A stretch of DNA of 64,000 nucleotides from Bacillota bacterium (lineage in GTDB: Bacteria; Bacillota; Bacilli; Paenibacillales; JBEGSW01): positions 70,446-134,445 of the forward strand of contig JBEGSW010000032.1 in NCBI GenBank assembly GCA_041179705.1, given 5' to 3'. This document shows positions 2,981-37,539 of this stretch, piece by piece (the first letter of the stretch is position 1; every line of letters starts with the position of its first letter). The position numbers were made by a program, and so were the translations under genes. The notes beneath the pieces were generated by a model. The model worked only from the letters and a program-made list of their open reading frames with translations. It ran no database searches and was not told the DNA's origin.

Positions 2981-3725
2981 CCACTGTCTCCCCCCCTCCG
3001 CGGTATTGGATTACGATATCCTCAAACAATTCATGTTGGAAACAAGTAATCCGACGCATTTTCATTAATTCCAAAATAGCCAAAAATGTAACGACAATGT
3101 TCTCACGTTCACATTCATCTTCAAGAATCGCCGAAAACATCATACGATCGCCTTCTTTTTGGAAGTACCCAAGTAATTTGTTGATTTGATCTTTGACGGA
3201 ACGCTCATCGCGTTGAATCTTCGCAACCCGATTTTTAACAATCGTCCGTTTAACAACATTCTGAAACGTAAACATGATATCAGCAAGTGAAAGTCCCTTT
3301 AAGGGATCTTCAACTTGCTCAGGTGCATATTGATTGAAATCAATTGGTTCACGCGAAAAAATCAAACTACGCGCAAGCTCTCGGTCTTTCAATCGATCTG
3401 CCAAATCTTTAAACTTACGATATTCCAACAAACGCTGAACAAGCTCGAAACGCGGATCCTCTTCTGGAAGATCGGACATTTCCTCAAGTACAGGAGGTTT
3501 CGGCAATAACATCTTACTCTTAATGGAGAGCAATGTTGCTGCCATAACTAAAAATTCTGTTGTTACTTCTAATTCTAACTGCGGCATCTCACGAATGTAG
3601 CCTAAATACTGTTCCGTAATTTGTACAATCGGAATATCGTATATATCTAATTCATTCTTATCAATCAAATGCAACAATAAATCCAATGGACCTTCAAACG
3701 CATCTAATTTGTACTTGATACTCAT
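2949..3725 (-). CDS. scpA: Segregation and condensation protein A (kleisin)
   Basis: The translation [28 protein letters not shown].. is the ScpA signature. Its start overlaps the ribH stop as ATGA. Confidence 0.9.
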
Positions 3726-4186
3726 AGTTGTTTCGCAAGGTTTGCCATTTCGATCGCAGTAGCTGCAGCTTCCCAGCCTTTGTTCCCTGCTTTTGTCCCT
3801 GCACGTTCAATTGCTTGTTCAATGGAATCAACAGTGAGGACACCAAAGATCGTAGGTACACCAGTCTTCAATGATACACCAGCCACACCCTTCGCAACTT
3901 CACTAGATACAAAATCAAAATGTGGTGTGGATCCACGAATAACCGCACCAAGTGTAATCACTGCATCGTAGCGACCTGATGCTGCTAACTTCTGAGCAAT
4001 CAACGGAATTTCGAATGCACCTGGTACCCAGGCTACATCAATTTCCTCTTCTTTAACACCATGACGAATTAATGCGTCTTGTGCCCCGCCCAATAATTTA
4101 GAAGAAATAAATTCATTGAAACGACCGACTACGATTCCGTATTTCAAACCTTCTGATACTAAATGTCCTTCAAAAATGCGTGCCAT
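3722..4186 (-). CDS. ribH: 6,7-dimethyl-8-ribityllumazine synthase
   Basis: The translation is RibH-like ([11 protein letters not shown]..., 154 aa). It is the last gene of the rib operon. Confidence 0.95.
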
Positions 4187-4208: not shown

Positions 4209-5432
4209 TTATTTCTCGTCATTAAATTTAAGTAAATGTCCTAACTTCTCTTGCTTCGTGTGTAAATATTTTGTGTTATCTTTATTCGCTTCCATCTGAA
4301 TCGGTACACGTTCGACAATTTCTAAACCGTAACCTTCAAGCCCTTTGATTTTACGAGGGTTGTTCGTCAATAAGCGAATTTGACTTATTCCTAATTCTTT
4401 GAGAATTTGTGCCCCAATCCCATAATCACGTAAATCTGCACCAAAGCCAAGTTTTAAATTCGCGTCAACGGTATCTAATCCCTGCTCTTGCAACACGTAC
4501 GCTTTCAATTTATTCATCAATCCAATGCCGCGGCCTTCTTGTCTCATATATAGTAAGACGCCACTCCCTGCTTCATCAATCTGCTTCATTGCTGCAGCCA
4601 ATTGCGGGCCGCAATCACAGCGATGGGAATGGAAGACATCACCGGTTAAACATTCAGAATGAACACGTACAAGCACTGGTTGTTCAGGATTAAGTTCGCC
4701 TTTCACAAATGCTACGTGTTCCTTATCATCGATGATGTTCGTGTAGGCAATTGCTTTGAACTCACCAAAATCAGTCGGCATTCTAACTTCAACTTCACGC
4801 TTAACGAGTTGCTCTTTCTCATTGCGATATCGAATTAAGTCCTGGATTGAAATTAATTTAAGTTGGTGTTCATCTGCAATGATTTTCAAATCAGGTAATC
4901 GCGCCATTGAACCATCTTCTTTGATGATTTCACAAATAACGGCTGCTGGATATGAGCCACACATCTTCGCCAAATCAACAGCTGCTTCCGTATGTCCTGC
5001 CCTGCGAAGCACACCGCCATCTTTGGCAATTAAGGGGAATACATGCCCCGGTCTTCTAAAATCACTTGGTTTAGCAGCTGGGTTCATCAAAGCTTTAATT
5101 GTCTGAGAACGTTCGAAAGCAGAAATCCCAGTCGTTGTTGTGACGTGATCAACGGATACTGTAAACGCTGTGCCATGATAATCCGTATTATGCGTAACCA
5201 TTGGGGGCAAGTCGAGTTCTCTTGCGCGTTGTACCGTTATTGGCGTACACACTAAACCGCGACCCTCTTTAATCATAAAATTGATGTTATCTGGTGTTGC
5301 TTTTTCGGCGATACAAATGAAGTCCCCTTCATTTTCACGATCTTCATCATCTACGACGATGACAACTTTTCCCAGCATCAAATCATAGATTGCTGACTCG
5401 ATGCTATCAAGTTGGATGGGTTCGTTCTTCAT
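4209..5432 (-). CDS. ribBA: Bifunctional 3,4-dihydroxy-2-butanone-4-phosphate synthase / GTP cyclohydrolase II
   Basis: It has an N-terminal DHBP synthase domain ([10 protein letters not shown]) and a C-terminal GCH II domain ([12 protein letters not shown]). Confidence 0.95.
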
Positions 5433-5445
5433 GATGTCACTCCTT

Positions 5446-6111
5446 CTAAAAACCGTTTTCGATTAATTTTTCTAGTGTTAGTCCCGAAGATTTATGAGAT
5501 TGTTCCGTATTCGTCATCGGTCCCATTCGTAAAAAATGTTCGACATATCGTCCTAACACATCACATTCTAGATTCACGATATCCCCGATCGAACGATGCT
5601 TCAAAATGGTTTGGTCCAACGTATGAGGAATGATCCATAGCGTAAATGTACCTTCGCGCACTTCACCAACGGTTAAACTTATTCCATCAATTGTAATTGA
5701 CCCTTTAGGGATAATATATCGCATGAGATGGTCACGTGTTGGACGGATTTGGTAAACAATTGCATTACTTTCTGTCTTCTTACTAACAATTTCACCAATG
5801 CCATCCACATGACCTTGTACGATATGTCCACCGAATCGACCATTTGCTGCCATGGCACGCTCTAAATTAACTTCACTACCTGGTTGTAAGGATGATAATG
5901 ACGTGCTACGAAATGTCTCAGGCATCACATCTGCTTGAAATCCGCTAGAATCAAACGCAATGACGGTTAAACAAACACCATTTACGGCAATACTATCTCC
6001 AAGTTTGACATCGTGCATGATTGCTTTAGCTGCAACGGCGATGACCATCGCCTCACCCTGCGTTCGGATGGAACGAACCCGACCTAATTCTTCTATTATG
6101 CCTGTAAACAT
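5446..6111 (-). CDS. ribE: Riboflavin synthase alpha chain
   Basis: [10 protein letters not shown] start and duplicated lumazine-binding repeats. Confidence 0.95.
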
Positions 6112-6121
6112 CTGCTCTCAC

Positions 6122-7234
6122 CTAACTTTCTTTCAATCCATAATTTAGATAAGACTTTAATAGGACATCCCCATCGAAATGCTCCATTTCTAACCGATCT
6201 AGTTTGATCGCATGTTTCATTGTATCAACACCTGTCCATTGTAATGGCGTTGCAGCATGTAATCCGCCAATTAATTTGGGAGCAATAAACCAGAGCATTT
6301 TGTGAATGCATTTCGCCTCTAACATTGCCCCAGCGAGTTTGCCTCCTCCTTCAAGGAGAATGGATGCGATTTCCAGTTCACCTAAACGCTTCATAGCCAA
6401 CTTTAAGTCAACTTGTGGGCCGTTCCCACAGCGGATGACTTTAATGCCATTCGCTACAAGCGCATGCTCACTTTCAAGAGGAGCTTGTTCAGTTGTAACG
6501 ATCCAAGTTGGGGCGATTTGATCGATTACGAGTTGACTAGTTAGAGGAATCCGCAACTGAGAATCAATGACAATCCGAATCGGATGTAAACCAGGTACCG
6601 ATAATCGCGTTGTTAATGAAGGATCATCGGCTAAAACTGTGCCAATTCCGACCATGATCGCCTGGTTTTGATGGCGAATGGTATGAACATACGCTCTTGC
6701 AGTAGCATCTGTAATCCACTTGCTATCACCTGATTCCGTTGCAATCTTACCATCGAGTGTTGTCGCCGTTTTGAATGTTACAAAAGGTTGTTTGGTCACA
6801 ATATAATGATTGAATGCCTCATTCAGTTGTTCCGACTCTGTGGATAAAAGGCCCACATCGACCTGAATCCCATGCGATTGCAAGTGTTTGATTCCTTGTC
6901 CTGCGACGAGTGGATTTGGATCAACAGCGGCCACAACAACACGCGAAACGCCTGCTTGTATGAGTTGATCTGCACAAGGCGGTGTCTTGCCAAAATGACA
7001 ACATGGCTCGAGCGTAACGTAAGCGGTACTTCCTTTGGCTAAATCACCCGCCATCTTTAATGCGTGCACTTCAGCATGAGCTTGTCCGCGCTTCAGATGG
7101 GCGCCAAAACCAACCACTTCTCCCGCATTGACGATTACACACCCGACAATCGGATTTATTGCTGTCTGTCCTTGTGCAACAGATGCTAACTGAAGGGCAA
7201 ACTGCATATAATAATCATCATTCAATATTGCCAT
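6122..7234 (-). CDS. ribD: Bifunctional riboflavin biosynthesis deaminase/reductase
   Basis: It has a CMP/dCMP deaminase Zn motif (HAE...PCxxC) plus a reductase domain. The start was moved to ATG at 7234, 9 nt after RBS GGAGGG; the ORF-track start at 7255 lies inside the terminator T-tract region. Confidence 0.95.
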   Translation of the reverse strand: MAILNDDYYMQFALQLASVAQGQTAINPIVGCVIVNAGEVVGFGAHLKRGQAHAEVHALKMAGDLAKGSTAYVTLEPCCHFGKTPPCADQLIQAGVSRVVVAAVDPNPLVAGQGIKHLQSHGIQVDVGLLSTESEQLNEAFNHYIVTKQPFVTFKTATTLDGKIATESGDSKWITDATARAYVHTIRHQNQAIMVGIGTVLADDPSLTTRLSVPGLHPIRIVIDSQLRIPLTSQLVIDQIAPTWIVTTEQAPLESEHALVANGIKVIRCGNGPQVDLKLAMKRLGELEIASILLEGGGKLAGAMLEAKCIHKMLWFIAPKLIGGLHAATPLQWTGVDTMKHAIKLDRLEMEHFDGDVLLKSYLNYGLKES

Positions 7235-7253
7235 GATCTCACATCCCTCCTGC

Positions 7254-7512
7254 AAAAAAATAAACCCCTAGCAGCGTACGCTTAGGGGTTTGGGATTCCA
7301 TGATAGATTAGCACGAAACAAATCGATTGTTAATGAACAAATCGACTTACATCGCGCTGATTCTTCGTTCTCTCTCCCATCCAGACTTTACTGTCGGCTT
7401 CGGAATTGCACCGAATCCACCGCCCACAGCAAGTTGCATATGGTCGGGTCACGGACTTACGACTATTGTCGATCACCGCCGGTTGGGAATTTCACCCTAC
7501 CCCGAAAGAACA
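7254..7512 (-). promoter_or_regulatory. FMN riboswitch (RFN element) with intrinsic terminator
   Basis: The minus strand reads ..CGGGGTAGGGTGAAATTCCCAACCGGCGGTGA..GTGACCCG..GGTGGATTCGGTGCAATTCCGAAGCCGACAGTAAAGTCTGGATGGGAGA.., matching the conserved RFN core. It is followed by the hairpin AAACCCCTA/TAGGGGTTT plus a T-run at 7254..7291, just ahead of ribD. Confidence 0.95.
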
Positions 7513-7535
7513 TCAATATGTAATTGTGTAATTCA

Positions 7536-32074: not shown

Positions 32075-32491
32075 TTAAAATTGAAAAGTAATCACTTTTA
32101 GGTCTTTGTGTCGCATATTGACGACGACAACACCTTCAGCATCTGGAAATTGCATATAATAAGGCAAGATGTAATCGCGTATTGCACTCCCAGTCCATTC
32201 GTATGGTTTGCGGTCCCTATCTACTTTCACGATATACCAAAAATCGGCTTTCGTCACAAAATAATCAATAAATATTCGGCTCTCGTAAGATACATTATCC
32301 ACTTTCATCCGTATCGGAATCCGTGTTTTTGAAGCTTCGATTGTAAAACCATGACTTTCTAAAAAATCAGTTACTTCAGTCCGAACAAAATCTGGGTTCT
32401 GTTCAAACGGGAATGGATTCGAGCGACTCGATGAAAGCCACTTGCGCATGTTAAAAAATACAAGGTAACAAATCAAACCTATAAGTAACAC
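32075..32491 (-). CDS. Hypothetical membrane-anchored protein (138 aa)
   Basis: The ORF has one N-terminal TM helix and a roughly 110-aa alpha/beta-looking domain. I recognise no family. The GTG start lacks a convincing RBS. It sits after a tlyA terminator and 12 nt ahead of argR. Confidence 0.5.
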   Translation of the reverse strand: MLLIGLICYLVFFNMRKWLSSSRSNPFPFEQNPDFVRTEVTDFLESHGFTIEASKTRIPIRMKVDNVSYESRIFIDYFVTKADFWYIVKVDRDRKPYEWTGSAIRDYILPYYMQFPDAEGVVVVNMRHKDLKVITFQF

Positions 32492-33436: not shown

Positions 33437-35314
33437 CTAGTTCACACTCCGCAATGCATGAACGCGCTCAACTAAATGTTCAACGGTAAGACCAACTTCT
33501 CTCCGTTGATCTTTCACACTGCCATGTTCAATATATTCATCAGGAACACCCATTGCGGAGAACGGTGGAATTCGCAACCCATTAGACAAATACCACTCCA
33601 TGACAGAGCTACCAAACCCACCCGATATACAAGCTTCTTCCATCGTGATGACTGGTTTTTGCTTAGCAGCAATACGTTGTAACATTTGGTTGTCTAATGG
33701 CTTAATGAACCGCGCATTCACAACTTCGACGGTAATTCCGATTGCTGCAAGTTGCTCGGCGGCTTGTAGAGCAATTGGAATCATAGGTCCAATCGCTAAT
33801 ACAGTAGCGTCATTTCCCTCACTTAGCACTTCCCATGTTCCAATCGGAATTGGTTGTACCTGTGCATCATACGCGACACCTAAGCCATTCATACGGGGAT
33901 ATCTGACGGCAATTGGCCCATCGTTATAGGCAAGCCCAGTTGCCATCATATGACGTAGTTCATTTTCGTCTTTAGGCATCATAAGTACCATATTCGGTAT
34001 ATGTCTCAGAAAGGCAATGTCGTAGACACCTTGATGTGTCTCTCCATCAGCACCCACAAATCCAGCCCGATCAATCGCCATAAATACATTTAAATTTTGA
34101 CGGCAAATATCATGGACAACCTGATCATAGGCACGCTGTAAAAATGTCGAATAGACAGCGAATACCGGCTTCATTCCTTCAAGTGCAAGCGCACCGCATA
34201 GCGTTGCTGCATGTTGTTCAGCAATGCCAACATCAATCATGCGGGATGGGAATAATTCAGCAAATTTCATCAAACCAGAACCGCCAGGCATCGCAGGTGT
34301 AATCGCAATAATGCGTTCGTCCTTCTGCGCCAATTCAATCAATGAGTTACCAAAGACCTCTGTGTACATCGGCGGTGCTTCAGCACCTTTAATGACTTGG
34401 CCAGATTCGATCTTGTATGGACTAATGCCATGCCACTTGTGGGAGTCCGCCTCAGCAGGCGTATACCCTTTCCCTTTCATCGTAACAACATGAACGAGCG
34501 TTGGCCCTTCAACCTTATCCGCTTGTTGAAAAGCTTCAAATAACTGTTGGAAATTATGACCATCAACGGGTCCAAAATACGTGAACCCAAGTTCTTCAAA
34601 CCAAACACCAGGAACCATTAAATACTTCAGTCCATCTTTAAACTTTTCCGCTGTACGAGCTAACTTGTCACCGATTGCCGGGATTTTTTTGATTAAATGG
34701 TCGACTTCAACTTTCGCTTTCACATAGTGTCGATCTGAACGAATACGTCCTAGGTAATTGTGAATCGCTCCTACGTTAGGTGCTATGGACATCTCATTAT
34801 CATTTAGTACAACAATTAATTTGCGCTTCTCGTGTCCAATATGATTCATTGCTTCTAATGCCATGCCACCTGTCATCGCGCCATCACCAATAACAGCTAT
34901 CACATGGTTATCTTCACCCTTCGCATCACGAGCGACTGCCATGCCCATTGCAGCAGAAAGTGACGTACTGCTGTGACCAGCTTCCCATACGTCGTGTTCA
35001 CTTTCGTTTCGTTTAATGAATCCACATAACCCTTTGTATTGACGAAGTTGGTCAAATTGATCCATGCGACCCGTTAATATTTTATGAACATAGGATTGAT
35101 GTCCGACGTCAAAAATAAACTTATCTTTTGGGCTTTCAAAGATGTGATGCATCGCTAACGTCAACTCAACAATCCCTAAATTAGACGCTAAATGCCCCCC
35201 AGTCACGGAGAGTTTTGTTATTAAAAATTGACGGATTTCTTCTGCCAATCCTTCTAATTGATCCATCGTAAGTGATTTAATATCACTTGGCTGACGAATG
35301 GTTTCGAGCACCAC
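33437..35314 (-). CDS. dxs: 1-deoxy-D-xylulose-5-phosphate synthase
   Basis: The translation is full-length Dxs ([18 protein letters not shown]). GTG start is preceded by GGGGGAG. Confidence 0.97.
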
Positions 35315-35921
35315 TTTTACTCCCCCGCTTCCCGTTGCTGTTCTTTTTCTTGCTAGATAATAACTGAATATTTAATCTGTGTTCAAAAAAATAGAAAACC
35401 CGACCAATGGTGAGGATAATCGTGTTTGATTTATGTATGGCGAAAGATTTCCCAAGCGCTTTACCACCTACCGTCATGCCGGAAACAGTTGCAGCAACAA
35501 CGATACTTGTGACAAAAGCCAAGATCCCTTCTGAGTTCATATTTAAGTTGGAAATTAATTTAATAACAACGAGTGCACTTGCAGCACCACTTACGATAGA
35601 AGAAATATCTCCAATTACGTCGTTGCAAATGTTAGAAAATCGATCTGCATTTCGTATAATTAGTATGGCCTGTTTAGAGCCTTTTACCTTCTCTGCCGCC
35701 ATGCCGTGGAACGGAATTTCATTAGCTGCCGTAGAAGCGATACCCATCATGTCAAACAATATCCCGATGCCTACGAGTACGATTACGATGAGCATGCCGA
35801 TTCCCCAAGATACACCCTCCAAAACCGATGTTGAAACGATTGAGAAAATGGCTGCCAATATAAACGTAACGAAAAATATAAATACACTCCATCGCATGGA
35901 GTTAAGAAACGAATATTTCAT
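35283..35921 (-). CDS. oapA: Four-TM membrane protein, candidate OLE-associated protein A
   Basis: It has four predicted TM helices and a Lys/Arg/Ser-rich C-terminal tail ([24 protein letters not shown]). It sits between the large ORF-free RNA-like region and dxs, which is the reported position of oapA. Confidence 0.7.
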
Positions 35922-35954
35922 TGCGTATCTATTTCTCCTAACGAAGTTTAATTA

Positions 35955-36590
35955 ATAAAAGGCGTGGTAGCCCTTTGAGTAAACGCTGTGGCTTAGGTCC
36001 AGTAGGTTTTCCCAGGCGAAGCTCCTCAACGTCGCCGTCGAGGCGGTTTCCCTTTATACTTGCCTTGATGACGTCACCGCACATCAGACTAGATTACCAC
36101 TTAGTCCACACTATAATCCTCAAAGTGCCTCAAACGTGTTGAACAGTCTAGGAGTTTTCCTCAACAGTCTTCTTTGTACCGTCTCTTAGCCTCTTTTGCA
36201 AGGTAGATTTCATATGGCATCCAGTATCCGTCGCTTTGGCCGAAGCTTTGAATACCTACCATCCATAATCCCCTCTAACTCACTCAAGGCAGGCTACGCT
36301 GCATACAGGTTCATATCACTTAAAAAAGCTATACAAATCCGCAATTGCAGGTTCATACCCCAAGCCGTAATCGTTCGTACGATGACGAGCAACCACGAAC
36401 TTGGGCCTCCGCGGAAGGAGGGTCAACGCCCACATGCCATTGCGGATCGCCCTCCAACCTTAACTCCCAGCATCAGCCCCCGACTGGGCGTCGAAAGCCA
36501 ACACAAGGAACTTCATCGATGTGCCCTTTGGCGAATTTTTAGGCCCGCCTTCAGAAACGTTAGACTGACTAGAATACTGCACCACTAATA
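35955..36590 (-). ncRNA. ole: Candidate OLE (ornate, large, extremophilic) RNA
   Basis: The gap is roughly 630 nt and has no minus-strand ORF in the track. It is visibly more G+C-rich than its flanks. It holds many local helices, for example the GNRA hairpin CCUCGACG-GCGA-CGUUGAGG at 36024..36043 and GGAGGG...CCCUCC at about 36416..36456. The flanking order ispA / RNA / 4-TM protein / dxs is the reported OLE context. Confidence 0.8.
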
Positions 36591-36593
36591 AAT

Positions 36594-36621
36594 ATTATAT
36601 CACAAAACATGATGTTCACAA
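36594..36621 (-). promoter_or_regulatory. Candidate sigma-A promoter with extended -10 ahead of the OLE-like RNA
   Basis: The minus strand reads TTGTGA (36616..36621) - 16 nt - TATAAT (36594..36599), with TG making TGATATAAT. Confidence 0.5.
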
Positions 36622-36633
36622 TGAATCTGGAAA

Positions 36634-37539
36634 TTAATGGTCACGACTCATGAGCCAATCACCAAGTTCTAATAAGCGTCTAGGATTTACAAAACCAGCC
36701 TCTAAAATGACAGCTTTTGCTTCTTCAGTTAATGCTTGAATCCATTTTTCACATTGTTCAAAACCAATTAATGTTGGATATGTGATTTTGTTACTCTCTT
36801 CATCACTATGAATCGGTTTACCGAGTTTTGTCTGATCACCGATTACATCCAGTACATCATCTTGGATTTGGAAGGCAAGCCCAATGTTACGCCCGTATGT
36901 CTCAAGTGCTGCTAGTTGTTGATCGTTTGCATGGCATAAAATACCCGCTGCACGCAGAGAAAACACGATTAAATCACCTGTCTTACGTTTATGAATCTCT
37001 TCTAATTGTTCCAAAGATTCAACACCACCTGCCATATCGGCAGCTTGTCCACCAACCATTCCATATGGCCCTGCATACAATGAAAGTTCACGGGATACTT
37101 GCAATACTGCTTGTGCTTCCTCTGGATGTGATTGCGCACGTTCACTGATGACATAAAAGGCATGTGTAAGTAACCCATCTCCAGCCAAAATCGCCGTAGC
37201 ATCACCAAAGACGACATGATTTGTCGGCTTTCCACGGCGCAAGTCATCATTATCCATTGCTGGCAGATCATCATGGATAAGTGAATACGTGTGAATCATT
37301 TCAACAGCAATCGCTGCCTCCAACACATCCTCATTCGAAAACCCTAAACTTTCGGCAGCAGCAAACATCAATGTTGGACGTAGTCTTTTTCCACCTGCCA
37401 TTAACGAGTAATGCATGGAATCTTTCAGCTGCGTTTGCATGTTAAGATTATTCTTAGTCCATAGTAGATTAAGTTGTTGCTCAATGTATGCGGCTTGTTG
37501 CTTGACATAATCCAATACGGGCGATGATTGTTCAGTCAT
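36634..37539 (-). CDS. ispA: Farnesyl diphosphate synthase (polyprenyl synthetase)
   Basis: Both DDxxD motifs are present (LIHDDLPAMDNDDLRRG and FQIQDDVLD). Confidence 0.95.
   Translation of the reverse strand: MTEQSSPVLDYVKQQAAYIEQQLNLLWTKNNLNMQTQLKDSMHYSLMAGGKRLRPTLMFAAAESLGFSNEDVLEAAIAVEMIHTYSLIHDDLPAMDNDDLRRGKPTNHVVFGDATAILAGDGLLTHAFYVISERAQSHPEEAQAVLQVSRELSLYAGPYGMVGGQAADMAGGVESLEQLEEIHKRKTGDLIVFSLRAAGILCHANDQQLAALETYGRNIGLAFQIQDDVLDVIGDQTKLGKPIHSDEESNKITYPTLIGFEQCEKWIQALTEEAKAVILEAGFVNPRRLLELGDWLMSRDH

What the first reader, a model, noticed from the sequence alone, without database searches (positions are those of the whole stretch)
35955..36590. Candidate OLE (ornate, large, extremophilic) RNA between ispA and a four-TM protein gene
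The minus-strand operon here is otherwise packed almost end to end, but this roughly 630 nt stretch has no minus-strand ORF in the track. The only ORFs are two antisense plus-strand ones of junk-like composition. The stretch is visibly richer in G and C than its AT-rich flanks. It is full of local complementary segments: a GNRA-capped hairpin CCUCGACG-GCGA-CGUUGAGG (36024..36043), GGAGGG...CCCUCC (about 36416..36456), CCCAG...CUGGG (about 36461..36483) and UGUUGA...UCAACA (about 36138..36165). The gene order ispA / large RNA / small four-TM protein / dxs is the context reported for OLE RNA and oapA in Bacillus halodurans and many anaerobic Firmicutes. OLE is a known but functionally unresolved ribonucleoprotein, linked to ethanol, cold and Mg2+ stress, and it is rarely annotated. 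This host looks like an aerobic-type spore former (cytochrome c, ccdA), which would extend the usual host picture.
Basis: partly seen in the sequence, partly recalled or inferred. Interest (0 to 1): 0.85.

Follow-up and report, generated by a model that had tools for sequence, protein, structure and literature searches.

The report
Ordinary OLE RNA gene with oapA
The gap between ispA and a small membrane-protein gene holds a textbook, full-length copy of the known OLE non-coding RNA with its partner gene oapA, in an uncultured Paenibacillus-like spore former; the call is correct, but this is an ordinary member of a family already common in such bacteria.

Summary
Window 36601..35948 (minus strand) matches the Rfam OLE model (RF01071) end to end at 520.8 bits (threshold 50, E 7e-150). 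This lies in the middle of the 469-547 bit range found for 20 relatives.

- **Structure:** Projected on 82 sequences, the Rfam structure is 87% paired, against 39-45% for slid controls. Compensatory changes occur at 120 of 159 pairs.
- **Conservation:** The window keeps 262 of 264 positions that are at least 95% conserved in relatives. These include the dimerisation loops, the OapB site and the k-turn strands.
- **Partner gene:** The downstream gene is OapA. It has four hydrophobic segments, an invariant DxxxD motif, a basic tail and weak CNNM similarity.
- **Expression signal:** An extended -10 promoter sits directly upstream, as in Halalkalibacterium halodurans.

One claim fails: that an aerobic spore-forming host widens the host picture. 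All 80 fetched loci carry ole-oapA behind ispA; their record titles name mostly Bacillales genera (Paenibacillus, Halobacillus, Virgibacillus and others). The model organism is itself an aerobic spore former.

Small lineage features are a P1 stem of only 5 bp, a P8 hairpin of intermediate length, and one substitution at a conserved position. Function is inferred by homology only.

The parts
35948..36601 (-). OLE RNA gene (ole), full-length type, as delimited by the Rfam model. The likely transcript runs from about 36586 to shortly after 35964.
   Evidence: RF01071 at 520.8 bits, E 7.2e-150, model 1-616/616. Covariation on 82 sequences. 262 of 264 highly conserved columns retained.
36594..36621 (-). 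Sigma-A-type promoter-like site: TTGTGA (36621..36616), 16 nt spacer, TG (36602..36601), one base, TATAAT (36599..36594). The predicted start is at about A36586/G36585.
   Evidence: Consensus scan, 10 of 12 matches with TG. A -10 hexamer with at least 5 of 6 matches lies within 30 nt upstream of ole in 77 of 81 loci, 72 of them with TG. A proximal ole promoter is experimentally shown in B. halodurans (PMC3413148). Activity here is inferred.
36581..36585 (-). P1, 5' strand (GUGGU). It pairs with ACCAC at 35968..35964. P1 is only 5 bp here.
   Evidence: The P1 columns covary in relatives (AU/GC/GU). The three outer pairs are mismatched only in the window and its near-identical metagenome copy L002.
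35964..35968 (-). P1, 3' strand (ACCAC).
36530..36549 (-). P4 hairpin with the A-rich loop CCUAAAAA (36543..36536). This is a dimerisation centre in the cryo-EM structures.
   Evidence: Identical to the Rfam consensus. The loop is invariant in 82 sequences. The helix is 99.6% paired with compensatory changes. Role taken from PMC12265935 and PMC12286853.
36511..36529 (-). J4a/5 (AAAGGGCACAUCGAUGAAG). With J5/6 (36463..36460) and the left shoulder of P6, it can form the k-turn bound by OapC/YbxF.
   Evidence: Matches the Rfam consensus and is largely invariant in alignment A2. K-turn role from PMC9723947. Folding as a k-turn was not tested here.
36485..36489 (-). P5.1 loop GCCCA, a kissing-loop partner of the P6.1 loop of the second RNA in the dimer.
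   Evidence: Invariant in 82 sequences. P5/P5.1 is 97.7% paired. Role from PMC12265935.
36435..36440 (-). P6.1 loop AUGGCA, a kissing-loop partner of P5.1.
   Evidence: GGCA is invariant in 82 sequences. P6.1 is 100% paired.
36299..36350 (-). P8 hairpin, 52 nt. Relative to the Rfam consensus it has a 22-nt insertion in the loop region.
   Evidence: P8 is 63-86 nt in the Paenibacillus-clade loci and has a median of 34 nt (range 25-48) in the other Bacillales.
36237..36242 (-). P9 terminal loop CGGCCA with the palindrome GGCC, the self-kissing loop of the dimer arch.
   Evidence: Matches the consensus. GGCC is conserved in at least 90% of 82 sequences. Role from PMC12265935.
36066..36086 (-). 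P13 hairpin with bulged U36081 and the GUGA tetraloop (36077..36074), the primary OapB-binding site.
   Evidence: alignment. The helix is 95% paired with 7 of 8 pairs showing compensatory changes. The same GUGA loop and single-base bulge are required for OapB binding in B. halodurans (PMC7936274).
36024..36043 (-). P14.1 hairpin with the GCGA tetraloop (36035..36032), a weak secondary OapB site.
   Evidence: Role from PMC7936274.
35283..35921 (-). oapA, 212 aa. It has four hydrophobic segments, DVIGD at residues 101-105 and a basic C-terminal tail. An AGGAG sequence lies at 35939..35935.
   Evidence: Weak CNNM match, PF01595 at 19.8 bits, below the cut-off. The top four Foldseek matches are CorB/CorC membrane domains. 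It lies directly downstream of ole in all 80 related loci.
36634..37539 (-). ispA (farnesyl diphosphate synthase), the upstream neighbour.
   Evidence: NF045485 at 369.6 bits. Upstream of ole in 80 of 80 loci.
33437..35314 (-). dxs, the downstream neighbour. Its called GTG start overlaps the end of oapA by 32 nt.
   Evidence: TIGR00204 at 907 bits. Directly downstream of oapA in 65 of 80 loci.

Best explanation
This is a functional, full-length ole gene encoding an OLE (ornate, large, extremophilic) RNA of about 620-640 nt, followed by its partner gene oapA. The host is an uncultured Paenibacillaceae-like endospore former.

**Shown here**
- The sequence fits the OLE covariance model over its whole length.
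- The fold is supported by compensatory changes.
- Nearly every family-conserved nucleotide is retained.
- An extended -10 promoter-like site sits directly upstream.
- No terminator-like site separates ole from oapA, which starts 26 nt after the Rfam match ends.

**Inferred by homology with Halalkalibacterium halodurans and the clostridial cryo-EM structures**
- The RNA is transcribed abundantly from its own promoter, and also as part of the xseA...dxs operon.
- It folds into two domains.
- It dimerises through the P4 A-rich loop, the P5.1/P6.1 kissing loops and the GGCC loop of P9.
- It is held at the cell membrane by a dimer of the four-helix, CNNM-like OapA protein. In the newest model, P3 spans the membrane.
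- OapB docks on the P13 GUGA tetraloop with its bulged U. OapC/YbxF docks on the k-turn next to P5.
- The particle helps the cell cope with short-chain alcohols, cold, excess Mg2+ and poor carbon sources.

The biochemical activity of the RNA itself is still unknown for the whole family.
For: - **Model match.** Rfam OLE at 520.8 bits, E 7e-150, model 1-616/616, with no competing family. The score lies inside the 469-547 bit range of 20 relatives from 11 genera.
- **Covariation.** On a structure-blind MAFFT alignment of 82 sequences, the Rfam structure gives 87.2% paired cells against 39-45% for slid controls. Compensatory changes occur at 120 of 159 pairs, and 0 of 500 shuffles reach the observed values.
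- **Conservation.** 262 of 264 columns that are at least 95% conserved in 80 relatives are identical in the window.
- **Functional elements.** The dimerisation loops, P13 GUGA with its bulged U, the P14.1 GCGA loop and the k-turn strands all match the consensus.
- **OapA.** 1,758 homologues. D101 and D105 of the DxxxD motif are invariant. Four hydrophobic segments and a basic tail. A sub-threshold CNNM hit and CorB/CorC as the best folds, as published for OapA (PMC11332333).
- **Synteny.** All 80 genome loci have ole immediately upstream of oapA and ispA upstream of ole.
- **Promoter.**, matching the proven proximal promoter of B. halodurans (PMC3413148).
- **Strain stability.** Identical or nearly identical copies occur in at least five independent metagenome samples.
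Against: - Nothing here shows expression, stability, membrane localisation or protein binding. All function is by homology.
- The genes for OapB, OapC and bS21 are not in the 64-kb window, so the completeness of the particle in this host is untested.
- P1 is reduced to 5 bp. One position conserved in at least 95% of relatives differs (36560, C to A).
- 13 of 159 consensus pairs are non-canonical in this sequence, several of them in P9.
- The OapA model is only of moderate confidence (pLDDT 65). Its fold matches are weak (E 0.02-0.45).
Confidence: 0.94

Rival explanations
1. The stretch is merely a long structured 5' leader or spacer of the oapA-dxs mRNA, a cis-regulatory element such as a riboswitch or attenuator, rather than a stable RNA with a role of its own.
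For: No terminator-like site lies between the RNA and oapA, and only 26 nt separate them. The two are therefore probably co-transcribed. [quoted passage not shown]
Against: About 650 nt with some 20 covarying helices and 264 near-invariant positions far exceeds any known leader. The only Rfam family matched is OLE, typed as a gene and not a cis-regulatory element. In B. halodurans the RNA is a single, very stable, abundant species that binds proteins in trans (PMC3413148, PMC12265935).
Confidence: 0.02
2. The region encodes a protein on the plus strand (the 130-aa ORF at 36196..36588, or the 55-65 aa ORFs), and the RNA-like features are incidental.
For: A 130-codon ORF with a TTG start exists on the plus strand.
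Against: Only 4 of 80 relatives keep a stop-free stretch of at least 110 codons over the homologous segment. Length differences are spread over all three residues modulo 3 (27, 21 and 32). Conservation follows base pairs, not codons.
Confidence: 0.01
3. It is a decaying or inactive OLE relic in a lineage that no longer needs the particle.
For: P1 is shortened to 5 bp. There is one change at a highly conserved position. 13 consensus pairs are non-canonical.
Against: The bit score is typical of the family. 262 of 264 conserved columns are retained. oapA is intact with its invariant motif. The promoter is intact. The same sequence is found unchanged in several independent samples. The lost outer P1 pairs lie upstream of the predicted transcription start.
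Confidence: 0.03

Closest known systems
OLE RNA / OapA ribonucleoprotein of Halalkalibacterium (Bacillus) halodurans C-125 (PMC3413148, PMC7936274, PMC9723947, PMC12265935)
   Same: - Full-length OLE architecture.
- oapA immediately downstream.
- Similar operon neighbourhood; genes for isoprenoid biosynthesis and DNA repair are among the common ole neighbours in a 730-species survey (PMC12265935).
- Proximal promoter directly upstream of P1.
- P13 GUGA tetraloop with a single bulged U.
- GCGA loop on P14.1.
- K-turn-forming joining regions.
- OapA with DxxxD.
- Host is an aerobic, spore-forming member of Bacillales.
   Different: - The host is a Paenibacillaceae-like uncultured lineage. OapA is at most about 61% identical to any named species and 48% identical to Halalkalibacter wakoensis.
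- P1 is only 5 bp.
- P8 is longer (52 nt, against a median of 34 in Bacillaceae).
- There are no experimental data for this copy.
OLE RNAs of Paenibacillus species in public genomes (for example P. contaminans, P. psychroresistens, P. cymbidii; loci L007-L020)
   Same: These are the closest sequences, at 78-80% RNA identity, with Dxs at 70-71% and OapA at 54-61%. They share the same gene order and the same extended -10 promoter.
   Different: - The Paenibacillus copies have a larger P8 (63-86 nt) with a conserved internal loop.
- They have an 8-bp P1.
- Their -10 box lies 13-21 nt upstream of P1, not 7.
[quoted passage not shown]
   Same: They share the conserved core nucleotides.
   Different: The variants shorten or lack P7, P8 and P9 and often lack the OapB site. 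The window has all of these, so it is the full-length type.
Clostridium acetobutylicum and C. botulinum OLE RNA dimers solved by cryo-EM (PMC12286853; Wang et al. 2025, as cited in PMC12265935)
   Same: The loops that form the intermolecular bridges are identical to the family consensus here: the P4 A-rich loop, P5.1 GCCCA, P6.1 AUGGCA and the P9 GGCC.
   Different: Dimerisation of this RNA was not tested. The hosts are anaerobic Clostridia.
CNNM/CorB/CorC/MpfA Mg2+ transporters (PF01595; PDB 7m1t, 7cfg)
   Same: OapA resembles their transmembrane domain. It gives a sub-threshold Pfam hit, and these are the best structural matches.
   Different: OapA lacks the CBS and CorC/HlyC domains, being only 212 aa. 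It carries DxxxD, which CNNM domains lack (PMC11332333). No transport activity is known for it.

Membership tests
OLE RNA (Rfam RF01071) | Significant full-length match to the family covariance model | tested here: met
   520.8 bits against a gathering score of 50, E 7.2e-150, model 1-616/616, not truncated. Relatives score 469-547 bits.
OLE RNA (Rfam RF01071) | Ornate secondary structure of about 20 or more helices supported by covariation | tested here: met
   20 helices and 159 pairs. 87.2% of cells are paired, against 39-45% when partners are slid. 120 pairs show changes on both sides. 0 of 500 shuffles reach the observed values. The alignment was made by MAFFT without structure information.
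OLE RNA (Rfam RF01071) | Large block of near-invariant nucleotides (about 25% of positions) | tested here: met
   264 columns are at least 95% conserved in 80 relatives. The window is identical at 262 of them.
OLE RNA (Rfam RF01071) | oapA gene immediately downstream on the same strand | tested here: met
   The 212-aa ORF starts 26 nt after the RNA. The same arrangement is found in 80 of 80 loci.
OLE RNA (Rfam RF01071) | Host belongs to Bacillota | tested here: met
   The window carries spo0A, spoIVB, the spoIIIA operon, the sigF operon, spoVA and gerA. The best protein and RNA relatives are Paenibacillus.
OLE RNA (Rfam RF01071) | Full-length type: P7, P8 and P9 present, with the OapB site (P13 GNRA loop and bulged nucleotide) | tested here: met
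   P7 is 47 nt, P8 52 nt and P9 102 nt. P13 has a GUGA loop and bulged U36081.
OLE RNA (Rfam RF01071) | Loops that mediate RNA dimerisation (P4 A-rich, P5.1/P6.1, P9 GGCC) | tested here: met
   This is a sequence-level test only. All are identical to the consensus, and invariant or at least 90% conserved in 82 sequences. Dimer formation itself was not tested.
OLE RNA (Rfam RF01071) | Abundant, very stable transcript of about 600 nt | not testable with these tools
   No expression data are available. Only a promoter-like site was found.
OLE RNA (Rfam RF01071) | Membrane localisation through OapA, and binding of OapB and OapC | not testable with these tools
   This needs biochemistry. The oapB and oapC genes are not in the window.
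OapA (OLE-associated protein A) | Small protein with four predicted transmembrane helices | tested here: met
   Four Kyte-Doolittle segments at about residues 5-39, 28-66, 102-126 and 131-153. The AlphaFold model is all-helical.
OapA (OLE-associated protein A) | DxxxD motif | tested here: met
   DVIGD at residues 101-105. D101 and D105 are invariant in 16 homologues. The motif is described as distinctive of OapA in PMC11332333.
OapA (OLE-associated protein A) | Distant similarity to the CNNM (DUF21) membrane domain, without CBS or CorC domains | tested here: met
   PF01595 at 19.8 bits, E 7e-4, below the cut-off of 28.4, and no other domain. The top four Foldseek matches are CorB 7m1t and CorC 7cfg/7cff, but they are weak (E 0.02-0.45, TM 0.27-0.48) and come from a model with pLDDT 65.
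OapA (OLE-associated protein A) | Cluster of basic residues on the cytoplasmic face | tested here: inconclusive
   The C-terminal tail has 8 K/R and no D/E. The loop at residues 67-100 has 5 K/R. Topology was not determined.
MpfA / CorB-type Mg2+ transporter | [quoted passage not shown] | tested here: not met
   The protein is 212 aa with only a sub-threshold CNNM match. It is therefore not filed as MpfA.

The most novel reading that the evidence does not exclude
The most novel reading left open is that this uncultured Paenibacillaceae lineage carries a slightly remodelled OLE. Transcription would start right at the conserved GUGGUGCAG, leaving a 5-bp P1. P8 is of intermediate length, and one near-universal position differs (36560, C to A). 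More broadly, the many mesophilic aerobic Paenibacillus and Bacillaceae that carry ole-oapA suggest the particle is a general membrane-stress device rather than an extremophile or anaerobe trait. That would offer easier model hosts. Published GTDB-wide surveys already imply the distribution, so the news would be small.
Probability: 0.15. Interest if true: 0.3.

Novelty: already known. Interest (0 to 1): 0.2.

Why it matters
OLE is one of the largest and best-conserved bacterial non-coding RNAs whose biochemical job is still unknown. For that reason, every correctly annotated copy is useful for comparative work. This copy, however, adds no new kind of information.

- It fits the family model, the known gene context, the known partner protein and the known promoter arrangement.
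- Its main practical value is annotation. Gene callers leave this 650-nt stretch blank, and OapA is labelled 'hypothetical' or 'CBS domain containing-hemolysin-like protein'.
- It is also a reminder that OLE is routine in aerobic, non-extreme Bacillales, although reviews continue to call it 'extremophilic/anaerobic'.

Tried and rejected
- **Host identification.** I tried to name the host species. The exact OapA protein occurs only on metagenome contigs from Logan and ENA samples. The best named relatives are only 59-62% identical. The host is therefore placed only as Paenibacillaceae-like.
- **Literature.** I searched for OLE in Paenibacillus. No open-access paper holds both terms, and the one supplementary file held for PMC11332333 has no taxon list.
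- **Solved structures.** A sequence search of solved structures with OapA gave no match at E up to 1.
- **Structure prediction.** The OapA prediction reached only moderate confidence (pLDDT 65). The CNNM fold match is therefore supportive but weak.
- **Antisense ORFs.** I considered whether the plus-strand ORFs are genes. This was rejected.
- **Positions 36587 and 36560.** I considered whether the two non-consensus positions are a compensatory pair. This cannot be decided, because both columns are nearly invariant elsewhere. In addition, 36587 lies upstream of the predicted transcription start.
- **Partner genes.** I looked for oapB, oapC, rpsU and mpfA among the larger ORFs of the window (at least 110 aa, plus a few smaller ones near ole). 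None was found. OapB and OapC are small proteins, and most ORFs under 110 aa were not scanned.
Two of the four named hairpins are not part of the accepted fold.
Full report
**Observation**

The region between ispA (36634..37539, minus strand) and the next minus-strand gene (35283..35921) has no substantial ORF on the coding strand of the operon. Only two ORFs of 48 and 41 aa are listed there. The opposite strand has ORFs of 130, 65 and 55 aa.

Its G+C content is 0.482, against 0.415 for the whole window and 0.41-0.44 for the flanking genes. The highest values, 0.52-0.54, are in the 5' half of the RNA.

The first is 36043..36024, a hairpin capped by GCGA. The second is GGAGGG/CCCUCC at 36455..36450 and 36422..36417. 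The other two, CCCAG/CUGGG and UGUUGA/UCAACA, join segments that are loops or joining regions in the accepted fold.

**Identity of the RNA**

A scan of the whole window against all 4,227 Rfam families gave two hits at or above their gathering scores.
- The first is the OLE family (RF01071) at 36601..35948 on the minus strand. It scores 520.8 bits against a threshold of 50, with E 7.2e-150. It covers model positions 1 to 616 of 616 without truncation.
- The second is an unrelated FMN riboswitch at 7513..7365.

I fetched 80 loci from one-genome-per-species public assemblies by searching with the downstream protein. Every one carries a homologue of the window RNA directly upstream of that protein (nhmmer E 1e-69 to 1e-135). 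Twenty of them, spanning Paenibacillus, Fictibacillus, Thalassobacillus, Halobacillus, Halalkalibacter, Virgibacillus, Oceanobacillus, Caldalkalibacillus, Aeribacillus, Vulcanibacillus and Terrilactibacillus, were scanned with Rfam. All give full-length OLE hits of 469-547 bits. The window's score is thus typical of the family.

**Structure**

I aligned the window RNA with 81 homologues using MAFFT, which knows nothing of structure. I then projected the Rfam consensus structure onto the alignment through the window sequence.
- Of 12,449 sequence-by-pair cells, 87.2% form standard pairs. The figure is 39-45% when the 3' partners are slid by one to three columns.
- 120 of 159 pairs show changes on both sides.
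- None of 500 column shuffles reaches the observed values on any measure.
- The weakest helices are the distal part of P9 and the distal part of P7. These are the length-variable ones that MAFFT aligns poorly.
- In the window sequence itself, 146 of 159 consensus pairs are canonical.

The terminal stem P1 is not in the Rfam structure line, but it covaries clearly in relatives (A-U, G-C and G-U at two positions; G-C, U-A and C-G at another). In the window it is reduced to five pairs, GUGGU 36585..36581 with ACCAC 35968..35964. The three outer pairs are mismatched only in the window and its near-identical metagenome copy.

**Conserved nucleotides and functional elements**

Among the 80 relatives, 264 alignment columns are at least 95% conserved. 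The window has the consensus base at 262 of them. The exceptions are 36587, which lies upstream of the predicted transcription start, and 36560 (C to A).

All elements with an assigned role in the literature are present and identical to the consensus:
- the A-rich loop of P4 (CCUAAAAA, 36543..36536);
- the P5.1 loop GCCCA (36489..36485) and the P6.1 loop AUGGCA (36440..36435);
- the palindromic GGCC in the P9 loop (36242..36237).

These three are the dimerisation contacts seen in the cryo-EM structures (PMC12265935, PMC12286853).

- The joining regions J4a/5 and J5/6 flank P5 and form the k-turn bound by OapC/YbxF (PMC9723947).
- P13 carries a GUGA tetraloop (36077..36074) and a single bulged U (36081). 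These are the two features required for OapB binding in B. halodurans (PMC7936274).
- The GCGA-capped P14.1 is a weak second OapB site (PMC7936274).

P7, P8 and P9 are all present, at 47, 52 and 102 nt. This is therefore the full-length type, not the reduced variants 1 or 2 described for TANB77 and RF39 bacteria (PMC11332333).

**The downstream protein**

The 212-aa product of 35921..35283 has four hydrophobic segments, a single DxxxD motif (DVIGD, residues 101-105) and a C-terminal tail with eight Lys/Arg and no acidic residue.
- It has 1,758 homologues at E up to 0.001 in the large protein collection. Most are unnamed, or labelled 'hypothetical', 'CNNM domain-containing' or 'CBS domain containing-hemolysin-like protein'.
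- D101 and D105 are invariant in an alignment of 16 homologues down to 54% identity.
- Pfam gives only a sub-threshold match to the CNNM transmembrane domain (19.8 bits, cut-off 28.4). NCBIfam gives nothing, and no solved structure matches by sequence.
- An AlphaFold model of moderate confidence (pLDDT 65) is all-helical. Its four best matches among solved structures are the archaeal CNNM CorB (7m1t) and the bacterial CorC membrane domain (7cfg, 7cff), with weak scores.

This is the published profile of OapA. It is a four-helix membrane protein, distantly related to the CNNM domain, that scores just below true CNNM proteins with PF01595. It lacks the CBS and CorC domains and is distinguished by DxxxD (PMC11332333).

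**Expression signals**

On the minus strand, TTGTGA (36621..36616), a 16-nt spacer, then TG, one base and TATAAT (36599..36594) form an extended -10 promoter-like site. A -10 hexamer with at least five of six matches lies within 30 nt upstream of ole in 77 of 81 loci, and 72 of these have the TG extension. Its position is therefore conserved.

In B. halodurans, a promoter immediately upstream of ole raises expression more than 100-fold. The mapped 5' ends lie at the start of P1 (PMC3413148).

In most relatives the -10 box ends 13-19 nt before the conserved AGUGGUG. In the window it ends only 7 nt before. Transcription would then start at about A36586 or G36585. This explains why the outer P1 pairs are not maintained: those bases would not be in the transcript. 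That link is an inference.

No terminator-like site was called between the RNA and oapA. An AGGAG sequence lies 13 nt before the oapA start codon. Co-transcription of ole and oapA is therefore likely.

**Context and host**

Pfam scans of the larger ORFs, those of at least 110 aa plus a few smaller ones near ole, show a typical endospore-former chromosome segment. In order, it holds:
- scpAB, the rib operon with its FMN riboswitch, and spoVA/gerA;
- the spoIIAA-AB-sigF operon, dacF, and nucleoside phosphorylases;
- fur, spoIIM, and the branched-chain keto-acid dehydrogenase operon;
- a c-type cytochrome, spo0A, spoIVB, recN, argR, and a tlyA-like methyltransferase;
- dxs, oapA, ole, ispA, xseB, xseA, folD, nusB, and two asp23 genes;
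- accBC, the spoIIIA operon, efp, ccdA, a zinc ABC transporter, and metG

.

These neighbours fit the gene classes reported around ole in 730 species, which include isoprenoid biosynthesis, DNA repair, central metabolism and sporulation (PMC12265935). ispA is upstream of ole in 80 of 80 fetched loci, xseB in 77 of 80, and dxs follows oapA in 65 of 80.

The exact OapA sequence is found only on metagenome contigs from at least five samples, whose copies of the RNA are identical or nearly so. The nearest named relatives are Paenibacillus and allied genera. OapA is 54-62% identical (Paenibacillus-clade loci and named hits), Dxs 70-71%, and the OLE RNA 78-80%. P8 length also places the window between the Paenibacillus clade (63-86 nt) and the other Bacillales (median 34 nt). 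The host is therefore an uncultured, probably family-level relative of Paenibacillus.

**How it most likely works**

By homology, the RNA is made in large amounts from its own promoter and folds into two domains. It pairs with a second copy through the P4, P5.1/P6.1 and P9 loops. An OapA dimer holds it at the membrane. The most recent model places the P3 stems across the bilayer (PMC12265935, PMC12286853).

OapB and OapC, encoded elsewhere, would bind P13/P12.2 and the k-turn. In H. halodurans the particle is needed for growth in ethanol, in the cold, at raised Mg2+ and on poor carbon sources (PMC3413148, PMC10898510, PMC12265935).

Sequence, structure, partner gene and promoter-like site are shown here. 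Expression, assembly, localisation and phenotype are inferred. The chemistry performed by the RNA is unknown for the whole family.

**Rivals**

- A mere mRNA leader is very unlikely, given the size, the roughly 20 covarying helices and the 264 near-invariant positions.
- An antisense protein gene is rejected, because the frame is open in only 4 of 80 relatives and indels ignore the codon phase.
- A decaying relic is unlikely. The score is typical, conserved positions are retained, and oapA and the promoter are intact. The sequence is also stable across independent samples.

**Novelty**

The suggestion that an aerobic spore-forming host widens the host range does not hold.
- The experimental model organism is itself an aerobic spore former (my own knowledge).
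- All 80 examined loci, mostly from Bacillales genera that are aerobic as far as I know, have the RNA.
- A GTDB-wide survey lists 2,822 OLE RNAs across Bacillota (PMC11332333).

What is specific to this copy is minor: a 5-bp P1 linked to a promoter placed unusually close, a P8 of intermediate length, and one substitution at a near-universal position.

Noticed in passing
window 7365..7513 (-): An FMN riboswitch (RF00050, 117 bits) lies upstream of a riboflavin operon: ribD 7255..6122, riboflavin synthase 6111..5446, ribBA 5432..4209 and ribH 4186..3722. This is an ordinary arrangement.
   Followed up: partly
window 32075..32491 (-): A 138-aa ORF between the tlyA-like methyltransferase and argR has no Pfam or NCBIfam match. 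A gene is also called at this place on the metagenome contigs (L001 from 6473). It sits inside the conserved ole neighbourhood, next to argR. A review mentions ArgR as an unpublished candidate OLE partner (PMC12265935).
   Followed up: no
window 36594..36621 (-) and loci L007-L086, up to 30 nt upstream of ole: An extended -10 promoter (TGnTATAAT) is conserved directly upstream of ole in 77 of 81 loci. In the window it lies 7 nt from the conserved AGUGGUG, against the usual 13-19 nt. This coincides with loss of the three outer P1 base pairs.
   Followed up: yes
L007-L014, L016, L017, L020 (P8 region, alignment A2 columns 282-368): Paenibacillus-clade OLE RNAs carry an enlarged P8 of 63-86 nt. 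It has a conserved internal-loop motif, GUCUCAC...GCUAAAAYGAC. The motif is absent from other Bacillales and is shortened in the window.
   Followed up: partly
window 36560 (-): C to A substitution at a position conserved in at least 95% of 80 relatives, in the 5' region between P1 and P4. The near-identical metagenome copy L002 shares it. Its significance is unknown.
   Followed up: partly
window 35283..35314 (-): The called GTG start of dxs overlaps the last 32 nt of oapA. The same overlap is called on independent metagenome contigs. The oapA Shine-Dalgarno sequence (AGGAG, 35939..35935) is 13 nt from the ATG, which is unusually far.
   Followed up: partly
L034 (JAGGRA010000014.1, 'Pseudomonas sp. 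ISL-84') and protein P0077 ('Chlamydia abortus'): Records labelled as non-Bacillota carry a Bacillales-type ispA-ole-oapA locus or OapA protein. Most likely these are mislabelled or contaminated assemblies. They are the kind of case that could explain the 24 'non-Bacillota' OLE hits mentioned in PMC11332333.
   Followed up: no
L078 5180..5244 (-): A Bacillaceae-1 small RNA (RF01690, 39.6 bits) lies downstream of the ole-oapA locus in Terrilactibacillus laevilacticus.
   Followed up: no
loci L025, L042, L044, L054-L056, L063-L066, L077, L079, L080, L082, L084: In 15 of the 80 loci, dxs does not follow oapA within the fetched flank. These are mostly Virgibacillus, Oceanobacillus, Lentibacillus and related genera. 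The ispA-ole-oapA part of the cluster is therefore more constant than the dxs link.
   Followed up: partly
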